A stretch of DNA of 55,064 nucleotides, the filler included, from Basidiobolus ranarum (taxonomy: Eukaryota): assembly GCA_040143965.1 (NCBI GenBank). It is 5 parts of 5 records of this genome, joined end to end, with 100 filler letters (N's around TTAATTAATTAA, not from the genome) between each part and the next. Parts side by side here need not be neighbours in the genome. Positions count along the whole stretch, not along the records: positions 44,153 to 55,064 come from JASJQH010000655.1; 4 more parts are not named here. One strand, written 5' to 3'. Both the position numbers and the translations under genes were made by a program. Numbering within the stretch: the stretch's first letter is position 1; each line of letters opens with the position of its first letter. Positions 993-55,064 of this stretch are shown here, piece after piece. The notes under the pieces are model-generated. The model saw only the letters and a program-made list of their open reading frames with translations, made no database searches and was not told the origin of the DNA.

Positions 993-1559
993 ATGAGTAC
1001 CATACTGGCCTTGTTAAATCCATTTCAATATCTCAGGAGCTCTTGGGCACTAACTCGAAATCTATTGATAATTATGTATATTAGAGTGTCAATTCTATTT
1101 GGACTAGAAGATAATGAAGGATCTAAAGGATACCAACCTATTCGTACGGTTCAATTTTCCGCCTTACTATTTGATAGAAGAGACAGTTGGGAGCCTGGAC
1201 TGAATTCCGCCGAAGTCTCACCATTACTGAATCGACGATCATTTGTATATGAAACATTTTTGGAAGATAGTAAAGATGGGTGTGAACATGTGAGTATACA
1301 AATGGATTCTAACGAGAAGATTCGAAAGGGTACACTATTAAAAGCAACCGCCAACACATGGATAGAATTACTCCATGAAATCTTTGGTAGTAGATACACT
1401 AGATTGAAGAGTCATCCCAGAGAAATCTATATGGAGAAACGGGGTAGTAGAAGCTTATTTCAACCTGGTTTAGGTCGCAATAGTATACACGTATCAGTAG
1501 TACCATTACCGCCACCTACTCGTGTATTCAGTAGTAATCCCAATTTATTGATGACTTGA
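993..1559 (+). CDS. Hypothetical protein (~188 aa)
   Basis: Long open frame 897-1559 in AT-rich DNA; first in-frame ATG at 993 (MSTILALLNPFQ...). No family recognised. Confidence 0.4.
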   Translation: MSTILALLNPFQYLRSSWALTRNLLIIMYIRVSILFGLEDNEGSKGYQPIRTVQFSALLFDRRDSWEPGLNSAEVSPLLNRRSFVYETFLEDSKDGCEHVSIQMDSNEKIRKGTLLKATANTWIELLHEIFGSRYTRLKSHPREIYMEKRGSRSLFQPGLGRNSIHVSVVPLPPPTRVFSSNPNLLMT

Positions 1560-2065
1560 TATCACATGATACCATTTACCCTTTATTCTCATCTATTTCG
1601 TTTTCACATTTAAGATTAATATGAAACTGCACATATTACATATCAGCTTAGTTCTTGAAATCTATATAACACGCAGTATTGATTACTCGCTAGTTCATTC
1701 TCATTGAATAAAATTTATTTACAAAACATACCAATTCCAGGAATATTATCCTAATTAATTGGATGTGATAAATATGGGCGAATAAAATCCCTCAAACAGA
1801 AAATTAGATAATTCTCATTCCAGCAGATGGATTTCATGATGAATCAATCAAAATCATAGTGCAGTGGCAGTGGCTTATATCATTATATCATCCAAATAGA
1901 GTGACATAGTAATTATGATTAGTTGTCTCTAGTAATGGAAGAGATTACCGATGAAATTACGAAATATGATGACTACGTCCCAAACTTTTCGCCAAACTTT
2001 TTCGATATAAGAATAGGAATCTATTCTCTCCACATACATCATCACCAGAACCTGAATAATTAACT

Positions 2066-3390
2066 ATGTCACTGATACTAGTACTAAATGCAGGAAGTTC
2101 AAGTCTAAAATTTCAATTGCTCAAAAAAGAAGATACGCTAAAGGTAGTGGCCAAAGGAAGTATTCAAGAGATTGGGAGTTCTTCTAAATCCACCATCACA
2201 TGTACGGTCAATACAAACGAATACAATCAAAATGTGAACGTTTCCGATCACAAAGATGCCATCAACCTATTAATAGACCATCTAGTGGATTCTGAGCCCA
2301 AAGTTGTCAATTGCAAAGAGGATATAGAGCTTATAGGACATCGTGTAGTCCATGGAGGAGATCAAACGACACCTTTAATCATCGATCCACAATCCCTCAA
2401 GAAAATTGACGAATTGACGGAACTAGCTCCCCTCCATAATCACAGTAGTGTTCAAGTGATTCGCCACTGTCTCAAAATCATGCCTCATGGAAAGAACATT
2501 GCTTGCTTTGATACTATGTTTCACAAATCACTTCCACCCCATGTATATACCTACCCGATTCCATACGAGAATACAGTGAAGCAAAGCATCCGAAAATATG
2601 GTTTCCACGGTTTGTCATATGGTCATATTATAAAAGTCGCTTCGAACCATCTTGAAGGAAAACCAGAGGATTTCAAGTTTATTGCCTTACATCTTGGTAG
2701 TGGTGCCTCTGCCTGTGCCATAAAATATGGTGCCAGTATAGATACATCTATGGGAATGACTCCTCTAGAAGGTGAGACTATGATTCCCATCAGTACGATT
2801 TGTCTGATAGACTAATGTTTCTTTATTGCATAGGCCTAATGATGGGAACCAGATCTGGTGATATCGACCCATCGCTGATATTCCATCTTCCTCATAGAGA
2901 AGAGATGGCTAATGAGGCACCAGGCATTGAAGGAGAGAAATTTCATTTAACCAAAGCAGAGTATATTCTAAACCATCAGAGTGGACTTAAAGGCGTAGCG
3001 GGCACTAACGATATTCGGGAGATAATCAAGCTAAGCTCCAGCTCTGACAAAGAGAAATCCAAACGTGCTAAATTAGCACTGGATATGTTTATCTACCGAA
3101 TACAGAAATATATTGGCGCTTATTACGTTGCACTGAACGGTGCAGACGCCATCATTCTTAGTGGTGGTATAGGTGAAAAATCCAAAGAAGTCAGAGACGG
3201 AATATGCCAAGGTTTAGAGTCTATAGGAATCAAATTAAACATGACTAAAAATGATGCAGTGGAAGAGCAATTTAAAAATGGTAAAACTGTAGTTGAAATT
3301 GGTGAGGGAAAAGTTCGTACCCTTGTCATTCAGACTGATGAAGAGATGGAAATAGCTCGTGCGGTGCTTGAAATAGAGAAACAATCGTAA
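2066..3390 (+). CDS. ackA: Acetate kinase, 2 exons (intron 2772-2833)
   Basis: Motifs VLNAGSSSLKF, GHRVVHGG, LAPLHN, FDTMFH, IRKYGFHGLS, HLGSGAS, TSMGMTPLEG|LMMGTRSGD, SGGIGE, TDEE. A GTGAG...ACTAAT...TAG intron joins the two track ORFs in frame. Confidence 0.97.
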
Positions 3391-10955: not shown

Positions 10956-11055
10956 NNNNNNNNNNNNNNNNNNNNNNNNNNNNNNNNNNNNNNNNNNNNT
11001 TAATTAATTAANNNNNNNNNNNNNNNNNNNNNNNNNNNNNNNNNNNNNNNNNNNN
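10956..11055. other. Artificial contig spacer (N44-TTAATTAATTAA-N44)
   Basis: Six-frame stop linker flanked by 44 N on each side. Confidence 0.98.
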
Positions 11056-22000: not shown

Positions 22001-22100
22001 NNNNNNNNNNNNNNNNNNNNNNNNNNNNNNNNNNNNNNNNNNNNTTAATTAATTAANNNNNNNNNNNNNNNNNNNNNNNNNNNNNNNNNNNNNNNNNNNN
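22001..22100. other. Artificial contig spacer
   Basis: N44-TTAATTAATTAA-N44. Confidence 0.98.
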
Positions 22101-33032: not shown

Positions 33033-33132
33033 NNNNNNNNNNNNNNNNNNNNNNNNNNNNNNNNNNNNNNNNNNNNTTAATTAATTAANNNNNNNNNNNN
33101 NNNNNNNNNNNNNNNNNNNNNNNNNNNNNNNN
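33033..33132. other. Artificial contig spacer
   Basis: N44-TTAATTAATTAA-N44. Confidence 0.98.
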
Positions 33133-44052: not shown

Positions 44053-44152
44053 NNNNNNNNNNNNNNNNNNNNNNNNNNNNNNNNNNNNNNNNNNNNTTAA
44101 TTAATTAANNNNNNNNNNNNNNNNNNNNNNNNNNNNNNNNNNNNNNNNNNNN
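44053..44152. other. Artificial contig spacer
   Basis: N44-TTAATTAATTAA-N44. Confidence 0.98.
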
Positions 44153-47281: not shown

Positions 47282-47824
47282 ATGAGTTCAGATTTCGATT
47301 ATTTGACTTTCCTTCGGAAACGCTGCCAACACGACACAGAACTTATGAACGCTCCTAAGAAAGAGAGCGATACTGAAGACAAAAGTTTAGACTTTAAAGA
47401 TGATATCAAGCATTGTAATAATCCTGAGCTTGTAGACGAGATTCGTGCTAAACTCTTAAACTCTATAGAAGGCATGTTCTATATAAGTGAAGCCGACTAT
47501 CCTTTTACCTTCTTTTTCATCCCCTCCAGTAAAATATCTGAAAAGGGTCTCTCTACTTCCAAAGTACTCTCTGTAGAAGAATTTCGTCAAGTGATAAATC
47601 TTGATACTCCTCTTGCTGATTCTCAAATATCTTTGGAAGAATTTTTCCAACCTTTTGAAGACTCTTCAGAGTATCAGAGTCTCGAGAAAACTTTCAGGCA
47701 ATTCTTTGAACCAGACCATTTGAGCATTTACAGACTTGGCGAAATAGAGATTAGTGTTTGGATTACAGGACTGATAGAAGATGTCGGTCTCATTGGGGTT
47801 TCTACTCTAAGCATTGAATCTTAA
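47282..47824 (+). CDS. Nuclease A inhibitor (NuiA)-like protein, intronless
   Basis: EGMFYISEADYPF, SLEEFFQP, YQSLEKTF, IYRLGEIEISVWITG and terminal GVSTLSIES follow the NuiA family pattern (GLxYxSExDYPF...VYRxGxxEIxxYIxG...GLxTxxVET); acidic protein. Confidence 0.85.
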   Translation: MSSDFDYLTFLRKRCQHDTELMNAPKKESDTEDKSLDFKDDIKHCNNPELVDEIRAKLLNSIEGMFYISEADYPFTFFFIPSSKISEKGLSTSKVLSVEEFRQVINLDTPLADSQISLEEFFQPFEDSSEYQSLEKTFRQFFEPDHLSIYRLGEIEISVWITGLIEDVGLIGVSTLSIES

Positions 47825-49645: not shown

Positions 49646-51692
<2,047 letters not shown>

Positions 51693-52899: not shown

Positions 52900-52907
52900 T
52901 ATATAAG
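52900..52907 (+). promoter_or_regulatory. Candidate TATA box of the MnxG-like gene
   Basis: TATATAAG ~50 nt upstream of CCAAAATG (ATG 52958). Confidence 0.55.
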
Positions 52908-52957
52908 ATGAGGCGAACTAACAATACTAATTAAGATACATACTGACATCATCCAAA

Positions 52958-55064
52958 ATGTTCAATAGTCGGCCATCGAAGCGGGGACTTCACCGAGGCC
53001 AAGTGTCCCATTCACTGATCTACTGGATGCTGGTGTTACTAGCGATAAGTTCATTACTTCAAGACGTCTCAGCCTACCAAAGTTACAGCTCTAATCCTAG
53101 TAGTTATAATTCGAAATGGAATCATCATAGTGATGTCGGTTCTCATTACAAAGAAAAGTCAGATATGCGCCAAAGACTTGTTCCTCAAACTCGTCTTTAT
53201 GAGGTTTCTGCAATTCCAATGCCAGTAGTGATGAACACATGGGGTGATTATGATGCCAACGGTACAATGTTTGCTTTGAAGGAGAATCTTGATTACCTTA
53301 GCGGCTACCGTGATTATATCTTAGGACAGCTGAGTTTAAATTCTAGTGATATACCTATGGATCCCTTAGTTAAGCCACTAGTGTTACGTTGTAATCAAGG
53401 TGATAAAATCCATGTCAAGTTCACAAACCAAATTCCAGGAGCTCAGGTAGGAATGCACCCATATCTTTATGGATATGATATCAAAAGTGACGGGACAGCC
53501 GTAGGAGGTAACCCTACCAGCTTAATAGGTCCAGGACAGGTGACTGAATATACTTGGCCTTGCTTGAGGGAAGGAACTTACTTAATCTCTGATGGTGGCT
53601 CTTATGATGGCTCTCCAGCTGGTACTGTAATCCATGGGTTATTCGGAGCCATTATTGTCGAGCCAAGAGGATCTCTCTGGACTGATCCGACTACAGGAAA
53701 ACCAACAGTCGATGGTATACATGCAGATATTCATCCCTACCCCCTTAATGGAGGATGTCCCAAGAAATACGATTTTTATGACGAGGAAGATCAGCATACT
53801 CACCCTGATTGTCCATTCAGAGAATTCACTCTATTCTTCCAAGATCGAGTTCAAGTACGGAATAACGCCCCACCTTCATTCGACCCTTGTACGGGAGCAA
53901 ATAATACAGGAGTACCTATCTTCTTGAATATCTTCAACTATCGCTCGGAGTCAATGACCAATCGTCGACAGGCATTATGGAAGATGATCAAAGATGGGAA
54001 AATATCGAATGTTAACGGTGAAGAGCAGCATCACTCTAGCTGGCTATTTGGTGATCCAGCAACCCCAGTCTTCCGTGCCTATGCTGGTGATCCAGTAAGA
54101 TACAGAGTCATTGACACCGGTGTAACTGAAACCCACGTATTCCATTTACATGGTCATCAATGGAGTTCGGGAAGAGGTGATCGTAGAAGTGACATTATCG
54201 ATTCCTTTTCATTGTCTCCTCTGACTACTTGGGATTTGGATATCCATTTCGGTGCTGGCTCTAGATTGAAGACGATCGGAGATGTCATTCTCCATTGCCA
54301 TTTGTATGTCCATTTCGAAACAGGAATGTGGAGTATGATGCGTGTCTTAGATCGCTATGAAGATGGCTACTCTACCTATCCCGATGGCACTCCTACCCCT
54401 AAGTTGATCCCATTGCCTGGTCGACCACATCCACCATACAAGACTGAACTTCAGCCAGGTTATCCCAACTTCATTCCCGGCACCCCTGGCCAGAAATCCC
54501 CTAGAGTTCCTTGGCCAGTAGAATTGTTGGGTGAGATTCCGGAAGGATCAGATTATCGTCCAGCAACTGAGGTTGAAGTAGCAAGTATGAATTCAGATCC
54601 TCAAGTCGGAAACCTCTTCACTTTGATTCCTACTCCTCGCAACTTAGAAACGCACTTTTTCAACGTCAGTATCATGTCACGTGCTATTGAGTATAACAAA
54701 TATGGATGGAATTATCCATATGGCCATATGTATGCTGCAGCAGAAACAGTGAAGCCAGACCCTGGACGTCCTGCCAAGTATGAGCCTTTTACGATGCGTG
54801 TTACTCAGAAGAGTGTCTCCGTGAGCCAATACACCAACAACCTTCCTCGCACGATTCCTGCTACTCCATTTGATGCAGCATTCCCCGAGTGTGCAGCAGT
54901 TGCTCATGAAGGTGAGGCAGGTATGCATGTACATCTCGTCAAGTTCGATGTACTATCCAGCGATGGTGCCTCCGTTGGTTGGAATTATATCAGTGGTGCA
55001 AGATTTGGAAAGTATCTGATTAATCGTTGGTGGATTGATGATGCTCTGGGCCATGTCTTCTTCC
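52958..55064 (+). CDS. mnxG: MnxG-type large multicopper oxidase (manganese-oxidase-like) with N-terminal signal-peptide-like segment; intronless, 3'-truncated
   Basis: 702 uninterrupted codons to the window end. Motifs: VVMNTWGDYDANG, PLVLRCNQGD, SDGTAVG, HGLFGAIIVEPRGSLWTDPTTG, FREF, NYRSESM, EEQHHSSWLFGDPATPVFRAYAGDP, ETHVFHLHGHQW (54134-), IGDVILHCHLYVHFETGMW (54293-54328), PGYPNFIPG, MHVHLVKFDVLSSDGASVGWNY (54923-). Confidence 0.9.
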   Translation, partial: MFNSRPSKRGLHRGQVSHSLIYWMLVLLAISSLLQDVSAYQSYSSNPSSYNSKWNHHSDVGSHYKEKSDMRQRLVPQTRLYEVSAIPMPVVMNTWGDYDANGTMFALKENLDYLSGYRDYILGQLSLNSSDIPMDPLVKPLVLRCNQGDKIHVKFTNQIPGAQVGMHPYLYGYDIKSDGTAVGGNPTSLIGPGQVTEYTWPCLREGTYLISDGGSYDGSPAGTVIHGLFGAIIVEPRGSLWTDPTTGKPTVDGIHADIHPYPLNGGCPKKYDFYDEEDQHTHPDCPFREFTLFFQDRVQVRNNAPPSFDPCTGANNTGVPIFLNIFNYRSESMTNRRQALWKMIKDGKISNVNGEEQHHSSWLFGDPATPVFRAYAGDPVRYRVIDTGVTETHVFHLHGHQWSSGRGDRRSDIIDSFSLSPLTTWDLDIHFGAGSRLKTIGDVILHCHLYVHFETGMWSMMRVLDRYEDGYSTYPDGTPTPKLIPLPGRPHPPYKTELQPGYPNFIPGTPGQKSPRVPWPVELLGEIPEGSDYRPATEVEVASMNSDPQVGNLFTLIPTPRNLETHFFNVSIMSRAIEYNKYGWNYPYGHMYAAAETVKPDPGRPAKYEPFTMRVTQKSVSVSQYTNNLPRTIPATPFDAAFPECAAVAHEGEAGMHVHLVKFDVLSSDGASVGWNYISGARFGKYLINRWWIDDALGHVFF

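What the first reader, a model, noticed from the sequence alone, without database searches (positions are those of the whole stretch)
52900..53400. Signs of eukaryotic domestication of the MnxG-like gene: TATA box, added signal peptide, sequons
Seen: TATATAAG, an A-rich start context (CCAAAATG), and a ~75-aa extension MFNSRPSKRGLHRGQVSHSLIYWMLVLLAISSLLQDVSA|YQSYSS... before the MnxG-like core (TRLYEVSAI...). It has a basic n-region, a hydrophobic core and a V-S-A cleavage-like site. The protein also has sequons NGT, NSS, NNT and NVS, and a Cys-bounded insert (GGCPKKY...HPDCPFREF). As I recall it, Bacillus MnxG starts almost directly at the core. Inference: the enzyme was rerouted into the ER secretory pathway, which argues for a long-resident functional gene rather than contamination.
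Basis: partly seen in the sequence, partly recalled or inferred. Interest (0 to 1): 0.7.

Follow-up and report, generated by a model that had tools for sequence, protein, structure and literature searches.

The report
Bacterial copper oxidase rebuilt for secretion
A fungus carries a family of large copper enzymes taken long ago from bacteria, whose relatives turn dissolved manganese into mineral; the fungal copies have gained a fungal-style promoter, an export signal and conserved likely sugar-attachment and disulfide sites, so they probably work outside the cell, on a substrate that has not been tested.

Summary
ORF 52958 encodes an MnxG-type multicopper oxidase with intact copper ligands, one of at least 7 intronless paralogues in a Basidiobolus genome.
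Holds:
- A TATA-like element lies 58-66 nt before the ATG in 7 of 7 paralogues.
- A signal-peptide-like leader is in 14 of 16 fungal N-termini and 0 of 22 sister-clade bacteria.
- Core dN/dS is 0.10-0.17, codon use is native, and the block with DED1 was duplicated long ago.
- All fungal copies (Basidiobolus and chytrids) form one clade (100/100) nested among leaderless bacteria.
Corrections:
- Four sequons are no more than chance (3.3 expected, p=0.42), and NGT is a one-off. What counts is that N569 is kept in 14 of 15 fungi and 0 of 38 sister bacteria.
- The insert came from the bacterial lineage; only its two Cys are Basidiobolus-specific.
- Other bacterial MnxG homologues have their own signal peptides.
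MnxE/F were not found. Expression, secretion and substrate are untested. The scan has reported this family before on other contigs of this genome; my literature searches did not find it in print.

The parts
52900..52907 (+). TATA box TATATAAG, 58 nt before the ATG
   Evidence: [CT]ATA[AT]AA[AG] at -58 to -66 in 7 of 7 paralogues; exact 8-mer in 4 of 7.
52953..52960 (+). Start context CCAAAATG, A at -3
   Evidence: A purine is at -3 of the first ATG in 5 of 7 paralogues; the other two have tandem ATGATG. A source's gene model P0122 uses the same start.
52958..53074 (+). Predicted cleavable signal peptide, aa 1-39 (n-region 1-19, h-region 20-34, cut after V-S-A39)
   Evidence: Hydropathy; helix 18-33 in the model; small residues at -3/-1 in the Basidiobolus paralogues read by eye (VSA, VSA, VSS, ASA, VSA, ISA, CSA). 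SignalP was not available.
53075..53167 (+). Fast-evolving Ser/His/Tyr/Arg-rich disordered linker, aa 40-70
   Evidence: pLDDT <50 over 35-66; 11-50% identity to paralogues; expanded by repeats in the C4116 copy.
53192..55063 (+). MnxG-type multicopper oxidase core, domains 1-3, cut by the contig end; the gene continues on C6687/C9885 or on C624
   Evidence: phmmer to 9bxa_A E=1e-147; Foldseek TMq 0.74, E=2e-53; end overlaps of 92 nt with 1 mismatch and 50 nt exact.
53258..53266 (+). Sequon N101 (NGT), not conserved
   Evidence: 1 of 8 Basidiobolus rows, 0 of 8 chytrids.
53339..53347 (+). Sequon N128 (NSS), conserved in this subfamily
   Evidence: 6 of 8 Basidiobolus rows (all six of subfamily A), 0 of 30 sister bacteria.
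53390..53563 (+). C145 (53390) and C202 (53561): inferred disulfide completed in fungi
   Evidence: C145 in 15 of 17 fungi and 0 of 37 sister bacteria; C202 in 16 of 17 and 30 of 37. Pairing is inferred; no coordinates were available.
53735..53815 (+). 27-aa insert with C267 (53756) and C285 (53810)
   Evidence: Insert of 24-40 aa in all 31 sister bacteria and 25-51 aa in all 8 chytrids, 6 aa in 43 of 45 other bacteria. The two Cys are in 7 of 8 Basidiobolus rows and 0 of 84 others. pLDDT 92-97.
53888..53908 (+). C311 (inferred partner C645 at 54890) and sequon N315 (NNT)
   Evidence: C311 and C645 already in 32 of 33 and 32 of 35 sister bacteria. A sequon within 2 residues in 6 of 8 Basidiobolus rows, none in chytrids or bacteria.
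54134..54328 (+). Domain-2 copper ligands H393, H396, H398, H446, C447, H448, H452, M457
   Evidence: Invariant in every covering row of a 92-row alignment.
54662..54670 (+). Sequon N569 (NVS), conserved across Basidiobolus and chytrids
   Evidence: 14 of 15 fungi, 0 of 38 sister bacteria, 0 of 19 actinomycete loci; middle residue varies and +2 is S 11 times, T 3 times.
54926..54934 (+). Domain-3 copper ligands H657, H659; the last pair (HDH) follows just past the contig end on either continuation
49914..51692 (+). Upstream native DEAD-box helicase (DED1-like); the same gene pair recurs on contig C188
   Evidence: pS 0.64 for the DED1 pair against 0.67 for the oxidase pair.

Best explanation
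A functional, secreted six-domain multicopper oxidase of bacterial MnxG ancestry, long resident in fungi. SHOWN from sequence: intact type-1 and trinuclear copper ligands across domains 2 and 3, purifying selection, a conserved TATA position, a leader that the nearest bacteria lack, and one fungal origin. INFERRED: RNA polymerase II transcribes it from the TATA promoter; the 39-aa leader takes the chain into the ER and is cut after A39; N128, N315 and N569 are glycosylated; C145-C202, C267-C285 and C311-C645 form disulfides; copper is loaded in the secretory pathway, as for fungal Fet3 and laccases (own knowledge). Outside the cell the single chain, without an MnxE3F3 cap, takes single electrons from a substrate at the type-1 copper and reduces O2 to water. 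The adaptation came in steps: a bacterial donor lineage with no leader but with the insert and C311/C645; a common fungal ancestor that gained secretory targeting, C145 and the N569 sequon; then Basidiobolus, which added two more Cys pairs, more sequons and gene duplications. My odds for the substrate: Mn(II) 0.3, Fe(II) or Cu(I) 0.25, phenolics for wall or pigment chemistry 0.3, other 0.15.
For: Homology and fold. Copper ligands. Leaders: 14 of 16 fungal rows with an N-terminus against 0 of 22 sister bacteria; genome loci. Tree: fungi 100/100, fungi plus sister clade 99/100, nested among leaderless actinomycetes (FastTree agrees). TATA 7 of 7, including copies whose synonymous sites are near saturation, dS 1.7-2.8. 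Core dN/dS 0.10-0.17. GC3s 0.35 against 0.36 for DED1 and GND1. N569. Cys gained in pairs: C267/C285 and C992/C1012 of P0002 in Basidiobolus only; overall Cys density is lower in fungi (7.3 per 1000) than in sister bacteria (12.3).
Against: No RNA, secretome or SignalP evidence. Sequons are not enriched overall (fungi observed/expected 1.00, sister bacteria 1.14). N569 is one of 39 fungus-specific conserved columns and has a single origin, so its Fisher p-value is inflated by relatedness; Bacillus PL-12 MnxG itself reads NVS there, as do 4 of 45 distant bacteria. The n-region is long, and the leaders of Basidiobolus and chytrids do not align, so one ancestral gain of targeting is inferred, not shown. 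The TATA pattern was chosen after seeing the sequences, and I did not compute a shuffled background for upstream identity. Native-like codon use is the rule for transferred genes in Basidiobolus (PMC7466969). Against Mn(II): no MnxE/F found, and this subfamily has lost acidic residues kept in 37-38 of 38 sister bacteria.
Confidence: 0.85

Rival explanations
1. The leader is an uncleaved type-II signal anchor, so the oxidase stays tethered to the ER, Golgi or plasma membrane with its catalytic part in the lumen or outside, working like Fet3 in metal uptake.
For: Long basic n-region of 19 aa. The Rhizophlyctis and Borealophlyctis homologues have a basic stretch plus a longer hydrophobic segment with no obvious cleavage site. 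Iron uptake matters to Basidiobolus (siderophore genes, PMC7466969).
Against: The h-region is only about 15 aa, followed by a conserved x-S-A/S motif, mostly with Pro at -5, in the subfamily A paralogues.
Confidence: 0.08
2. The main product starts at the conserved M71, about where bacterial homologues start, and is cytosolic; or the Arg/Ser-rich N-terminus is a mitochondrial presequence.
For: Met at this place in 6 of 6 subfamily A N-termini with a credible gene model. The window's n-region has no acidic residue.
Against: The TATA position is fixed relative to M1; the h-region and cleavage motif are conserved; paralogue n-regions contain Asp/Glu; subfamily B lacks M71; conserved sequons and paired Cys fit the ER.
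Confidence: 0.05
3. Bacterial contamination, or a recent non-functional insertion.
For: Intronless; the family is otherwise prokaryotic; the assembly is fragmented (13,754 contigs).
Against: Same contig as GND1 and DED1; at least 7 paralogues; orthologues named from B. meristosporus and chytrids of five genera; the best bacterial hits are only 35-46% identical; dN/dS 0.10-0.17; old duplication together with DED1.
Confidence: 0.01

Closest known systems
MnxG of Bacillus sp. PL-12 (Mnx complex MnxG-MnxE3F3, PDB 9bxa)
   Same: Six-domain multicopper oxidase layout, type-1 site in domain 2, trinuclear site between domains 2 and 3, all ligands kept; TMq 0.74 at 34% identity.
   Different: MnxG has no leader, sits in the exosporium and needs mnxEFG for activity (PMC5622069, PMC13689576 passages). 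The fungal protein has a 78-aa leader, a 27-aa insert and paired Cys, and no MnxE/F was found.
Uncharacterised leaderless MnxG-like oxidases of mixed bacteria (Actinomycetota, Roseomonas/Belnapia, Archangium, cyanobacteria, Pontibacter, Acidobacteriota)
   Same: Sister clade (99/100); share the insert, C202, C311 and C645; no mnxE/F match within 4 kb.
   Different: No hydrophobic leader, no N569 sequon, no C145, more Cys overall; substrate unknown.
Pseudomonas putida GB-1 MnxG (NCBIfam NF041487)
   Same: Secreted MnxG-family Mn oxidase with its own Sec signal peptide and no known MnxE/F-type cap (PMC13689576 passages).
   Different: The model is about 1900 aa; the fungal proteins score 137-215 bits against a cut-off of 3100.
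Secreted bacterial-origin genes (xenologs) of early-diverging fungi
   Same: 33% carry a signal peptide against 7.7% of the background, and over half lack introns (PMC11291939), so gaining an export signal is a known pattern.
   Different: That paper's text and its 2 held supplements do not mention multicopper oxidases under the terms searched.
Fungal laccases and Fet3; animal ceruloplasmin
   Same: Secreted, glycosylated copper oxidases; ceruloplasmin also has six domains (own knowledge; PMC3600357).
   Different: Laccases have three domains; ceruloplasmin's trinuclear site lies between domains 1 and 6, whereas green algal and some prokaryotic six-domain proteins have it between 2 and 3 (PMC3600357). 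Sequence and fold place this protein with MnxG.

Membership tests
Multicopper oxidase superfamily | Type-1 ligands (His, Cys, His, Met) and eight trinuclear His | tested here: met
   the last two His lie just beyond the contig end on both possible continuations and are present in the full-length paralogue P0002.
MnxG-type six-domain oxidases | Six cupredoxin domains, over 1200 aa, copper centre in domains 2-3, closest homology to MnxG | tested here: met
   Full-length paralogues of 1336-1341 aa; best sequence and fold hit 9bxa_A. The window's own copy is cut at 702 aa.
Bacillus Mnx complex | MnxE and MnxF partner subunits | tested here: inconclusive
   Verified MnxE and MnxF homologues gave no match in G000 at E<=1 and none in sister-clade loci. 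One query each, in a fragmented genome: not found with these queries.
NCBIfam copper_ox_MnxG equivalog (NF041487) | Score above the curated cut-off of 3100 bits | tested here: not met
   136.7 bits (P0001), 215 bits (P0002).
Mn(II) oxidase (functional) | Oxidises Mn(II) to Mn(III/IV) oxide | not testable with these tools
   Needs an assay. The structure paper naming the Mn-binding residues was not held.
ER-targeted glycoprotein | n/h/c signal peptide with small residues at -3/-1 | tested here: met
   Hydropathy and motif only; no trained predictor was run.
ER-targeted glycoprotein | More sequons than composition predicts | tested here: not met
   4 against 3.3, p=0.42; fungal set observed/expected 1.00.
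ER-targeted glycoprotein | Positionally conserved sequons with S/T exchange | tested here: met
   N569, N128, the N315 region.
ER-targeted glycoprotein | Occupied glycosites, cleaved N-terminus, presence in the secretome | not testable with these tools
   No read or proteome data were available.

The most novel reading that the evidence does not exclude
Basidiobolus and some soil chytrids secrete a single-chain, glycosylated MnxG-type enzyme that oxidises Mn(II) to mineral oxide without MnxE/F: a eukaryotic version of the bacterial biomineralisation enzyme, acquired once, perhaps passed from a chytrid lineage to Basidiobolus, and then split into two subfamilies with different substrate-site charge.
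Probability: 0.3. Interest if true: 0.8.

Novelty: new variant of a known kind. Interest (0 to 1): 0.5.

Why it matters
A 2013 survey found MnxG homologues only in bacteria and two archaea (PMC3600357), and Bacillus MnxG needs MnxE and MnxF for activity and overexpression (PMC5622069). A naturally secreted fungal version with no detectable partners makes two questions testable in a yeast expression host: whether the accessory ring is needed for Mn biomineralisation, and whether early-diverging fungi oxidise Mn by this route. The family also records, step by step, how a leaderless bacterial enzyme was refitted for the ER (leader, one ancestral sequon, paired cysteines). Gaining a signal peptide after transfer is in itself common, which caps the surprise.

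Tried and rejected
1. Sequon count as evidence: rejected (shuffle p=0.42; none of 8 other fungal proteins reached p<0.05, lowest 0.086).
2. The insert as a fungal invention: rejected.
3. Bacillus as the nearest relative or donor: rejected; Firmicutes fall outside the clade that holds the fungi, and the sister clade is too mixed to name a donor.
4. A Kex2 dibasic site in the linker: not conserved across paralogues, by eye.
5. A bacterial sigma-70 promoter: 3 matches against 1.9 +/- 1.7 in shuffles, not above chance.
6. ESM Atlas on residues 1-70: best score 0.79, uninformative.
7. Asn retention in sequons against other lineage-specific Asn, 0.74 v 0.59: points the expected way, but the counts are not independent, so its p-value is not used.
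8. Disulfide distances and glycan exposure could not be measured: the model's coordinates are not returned.
9. The mixture-model tree returned no answer; the tree used is LG+G4, and seven rows have an unusual composition. No AU test was run.
10. Transcript evidence could not be obtained, so the start site is untested.
11. Literature searches for this family in fungi listed nothing describing it, judged from titles and abstract openings. The library lacks most subscription papers, and the supplements of PMC7466969 (its table of transferred genes) could not be read and may list these genes.

Full report
Setting. The window is five contigs joined by N spacers. ORF 52958-55063 (P0001, 702 aa) runs off the contig. 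A source lists a 659-aa model with the same start, P0122, under Basidiobolus ranarum. The end of C655 overlaps C6687 (92 nt, 1 mismatch; C6687 overlaps C9885 exactly over 102 nt) and the right end of C624 (50 nt, exact). Both continuations are open and begin with the last copper motif, so the gene is probably whole, but which half follows is unresolved.

What the protein is. P0001 matches Bacillus PL-12 MnxG (9bxa_A) from residue 79 at E=1e-147. The AlphaFold model (mean pLDDT 87.8) has 9bxa_A as its best fold match (TMq 0.74). The ten ligand positions inside the window are invariant in every covering row of a 92-row alignment. It falls far below the NCBIfam MnxG cut-off. G000 holds at least seven distinct N-termini of this family (C655, C9885, C624, C188, C4116, C8115, C6840/C2303); the copies on C624 and C188 are uninterrupted frames of 1341 and 1336 aa. 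Named relatives: B. meristosporus (3), Borealophlyctis (2), Rhizophlyctis rosea (2), Powellomyces, Fimicolochytrium (2), Spizellomyces. Only the best 120, 120 and 150 hits of the three protein searches were seen, so other eukaryotes are not excluded.

Origin. FastTree on 78, 167 and 105 rows and IQ-TREE LG+G4 on 38 chosen rows all give one fungal clade (100/100). Basidiobolus is sister to one of two chytrid lineages (100/99). The fungi are sister (99/100) to a mixed group of bacteria and nested among further actinomycete sequences; Firmicutes lie outside. The 167-row tree used the 150 best-scoring of 196 clustered bacterial-set representatives drawn from 359 proteins, one of which (P0251) proved to be fungal. 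No donor can be named. Basidiobolus inside chytrid diversity fits either an old duplication with many losses or a fungus-to-fungus transfer; I did not test between them.

Leader. Of 18 fungal rows, 14 have an 11-residue hydropathy of 2.0 or more before the core. Two lack an N-terminus (C2303 fragment, P0251 partial), P0005 looks like a faulty gene model, and P0017 scores 1.11 but ends in a hydrophobic tail. Of 22 sister bacteria none does (leaders 0-26 aa; two rows truncated). In 63 bacterial genome loci (62 with the motif-bearing frame), read from the earliest possible start, only L070, outside the sister clade, reached 2.0; some loci were truncated or lacked the locator motif. But 23 of 127 more distant bacteria have hydrophobic leaders. 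In Basidiobolus the h-region and the -3/-1 residues are conserved while the linker behind them drifts (identity 11-50% against 61-88% for the core). Chytrid leaders do not resemble them: short signal peptides in Spizellomyces, Powellomyces and Fimicolochytrium P0023, anchor-like segments in Rhizophlyctis and Borealophlyctis.

Promoter. [CT]ATA[AT]AA[AG] sits at -58 to -66 in all seven paralogues, where the window's background rate gives 0.5% per 16-nt slot. The pattern was chosen after the fact and the copies are related. Still, it persists between copies with near-saturated synonymous sites whose upstream 130 nt share only 60-75 aligned bases, which points to selection.

Sequons. Their number is ordinary (4 against 3.3, p=0.42). 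Fungal proteins have more per residue (5.2 against 3.2 per 1000) mainly because they have more Asn. N101 is private to this copy. N128 is kept in all six subfamily A rows, and a sequon at 313-315 in 6 of 8 Basidiobolus rows. N569 is kept in 14 of 15 fungi from both phyla (the fifteenth has one a column earlier in the other alignment), with V/I/F/L in the middle and S or T at +2, against 0 of 38 sister bacteria and 0 of 19 actinomycetes. Control: 39 columns are fungus-specific, four of them Asn, and only this one forms a sequon. It is one evolutionary event, and PL-12 MnxG also reads NVS here, so it is suggestive, not proof.

Cysteines. The stretch between the IH motif and FRE is 6 aa in 43 of 45 distant bacteria but 24-40 aa in all 31 sister bacteria and 18-51 aa in all 16 fungi: a shared derived trait of donor lineage and fungi, which backs the tree. 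Only C267 and C285 are new, in Basidiobolus alone, as is a second pair, C992/C1012 of P0002. C145 is fungal (15 of 17 against 0 of 37) and C202 is older; C311 and C645 predate the transfer. The six non-ligand Cys of P0001 sort into three co-occurring pairs. The pairing is inference.

Residency. Core dN/dS against four paralogues is 0.17, 0.13, 0.10 and 0.12 (Nei-Gojobori; the last is near saturation). GC3s is 0.35, like DED1 and GND1 at 0.36; codon preferences correlate 0.75 with six pooled native genes. DED1 followed by the oxidase occurs on both C655 and C188 with similar synonymous divergence (pS 0.64 and 0.67), so the gene sat there before that duplication.

Partners and substrate. MnxE and MnxF homologues from Bacillus kwashiorkori, verified against 9bxa, found nothing in G000. 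Among the 63 bacterial loci they matched significantly only three Bacillota loci. The donor lineage thus seems to have been partnerless already. Of 78 Asp/Glu/His columns conserved in 18 Firmicute-side rows, 48 are kept in the fungi. Subfamily A, which includes this gene, specifically swaps H189/E191, E569 and E717 (L084 numbering) for Q, R/K, A and K, where subfamily B, most chytrids and 36-38 of 38 sister bacteria keep them. Whether these line the metal site is unknown, as the structure paper was not held. This is why I put Mn(II) at only 0.3.

Literature seen. Passages: PMC11291939 (2 supplements searched, no hit), PMC3600357, PMC5622069, PMC13689576, PMC7466969 (supplements unreadable), PMC6690862. 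Search listings only. The cryo-EM paper of Novikova et al. 2024 is known to me only as summarised in PMC13689576. No listing described MnxG-type oxidases in fungi. Earlier notes of this scan report the same family on six other pieces of this genome; they are not independent support.

Verdict. A real, old, domesticated gene family whose secretory adaptation is well supported by comparison but not yet observed. It is a new variant of a known kind. Interest 0.5; 0.8 if Mn oxidation without MnxE/F is shown.

Noticed in passing
L003 (G000:C4116), 1064-1618, minus strand: A paralogue whose linker is expanded into His/Arg/Ser-rich repeats and has an in-frame stop at codon 113; the source's gene model P0124 skips that part. 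Pseudogene, intron or assembly error.
   Followed up: partly
window 53168-53170: Met71 is conserved in 6 of 6 credible subfamily A N-termini, about where bacterial homologues start; a relic start or a second isoform is possible.
   Followed up: partly
window 53846-53854 and downstream contigs: Subfamily A has lost or reversed several acidic residues kept in sister bacteria, subfamily B and most chytrids; a possible substrate shift.
   Followed up: partly
L025 (C9885) and L026/L027 (C624): Tandem arrangement: each contig holds the end of one copy followed by the start of the next. P0003 and P0005 of B. meristosporus both list a longest contig of 83,466 bases, which suggests a tandem pair there too.
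   Followed up: partly
window 47282-47824: NuiA-like nuclease inhibitor ORF (PF07924, E=3e-12) between GND1 and DED1; origin not examined.
   Followed up: no
window 2066-3390: Acetate kinase (PF00871) in two frames, probably split by an intron; on a different contig.
   Followed up: no
P0017 (Fimicolochytrium): Homologue with a Cys-rich N-terminal domain of about 200 aa, a Ser/Thr-rich C-terminal stalk and a hydrophobic tail, like a GPI- or membrane-anchored wall protein.
   Followed up: no
L051, L055, L061, L063, L069, downstream of the oxidase: In five Actinomadura loci the MnxG-like gene is followed by a small ORF that looks like a Fur/PerR-type regulator (label from recall, not scanned).
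   Followed up: no
window 10956-11055, 22001-22100, 33033-33132, 44053-44152: N spacers with a 12-base insert join unrelated contigs; genes on either side are not neighbours.
   Followed up: yes
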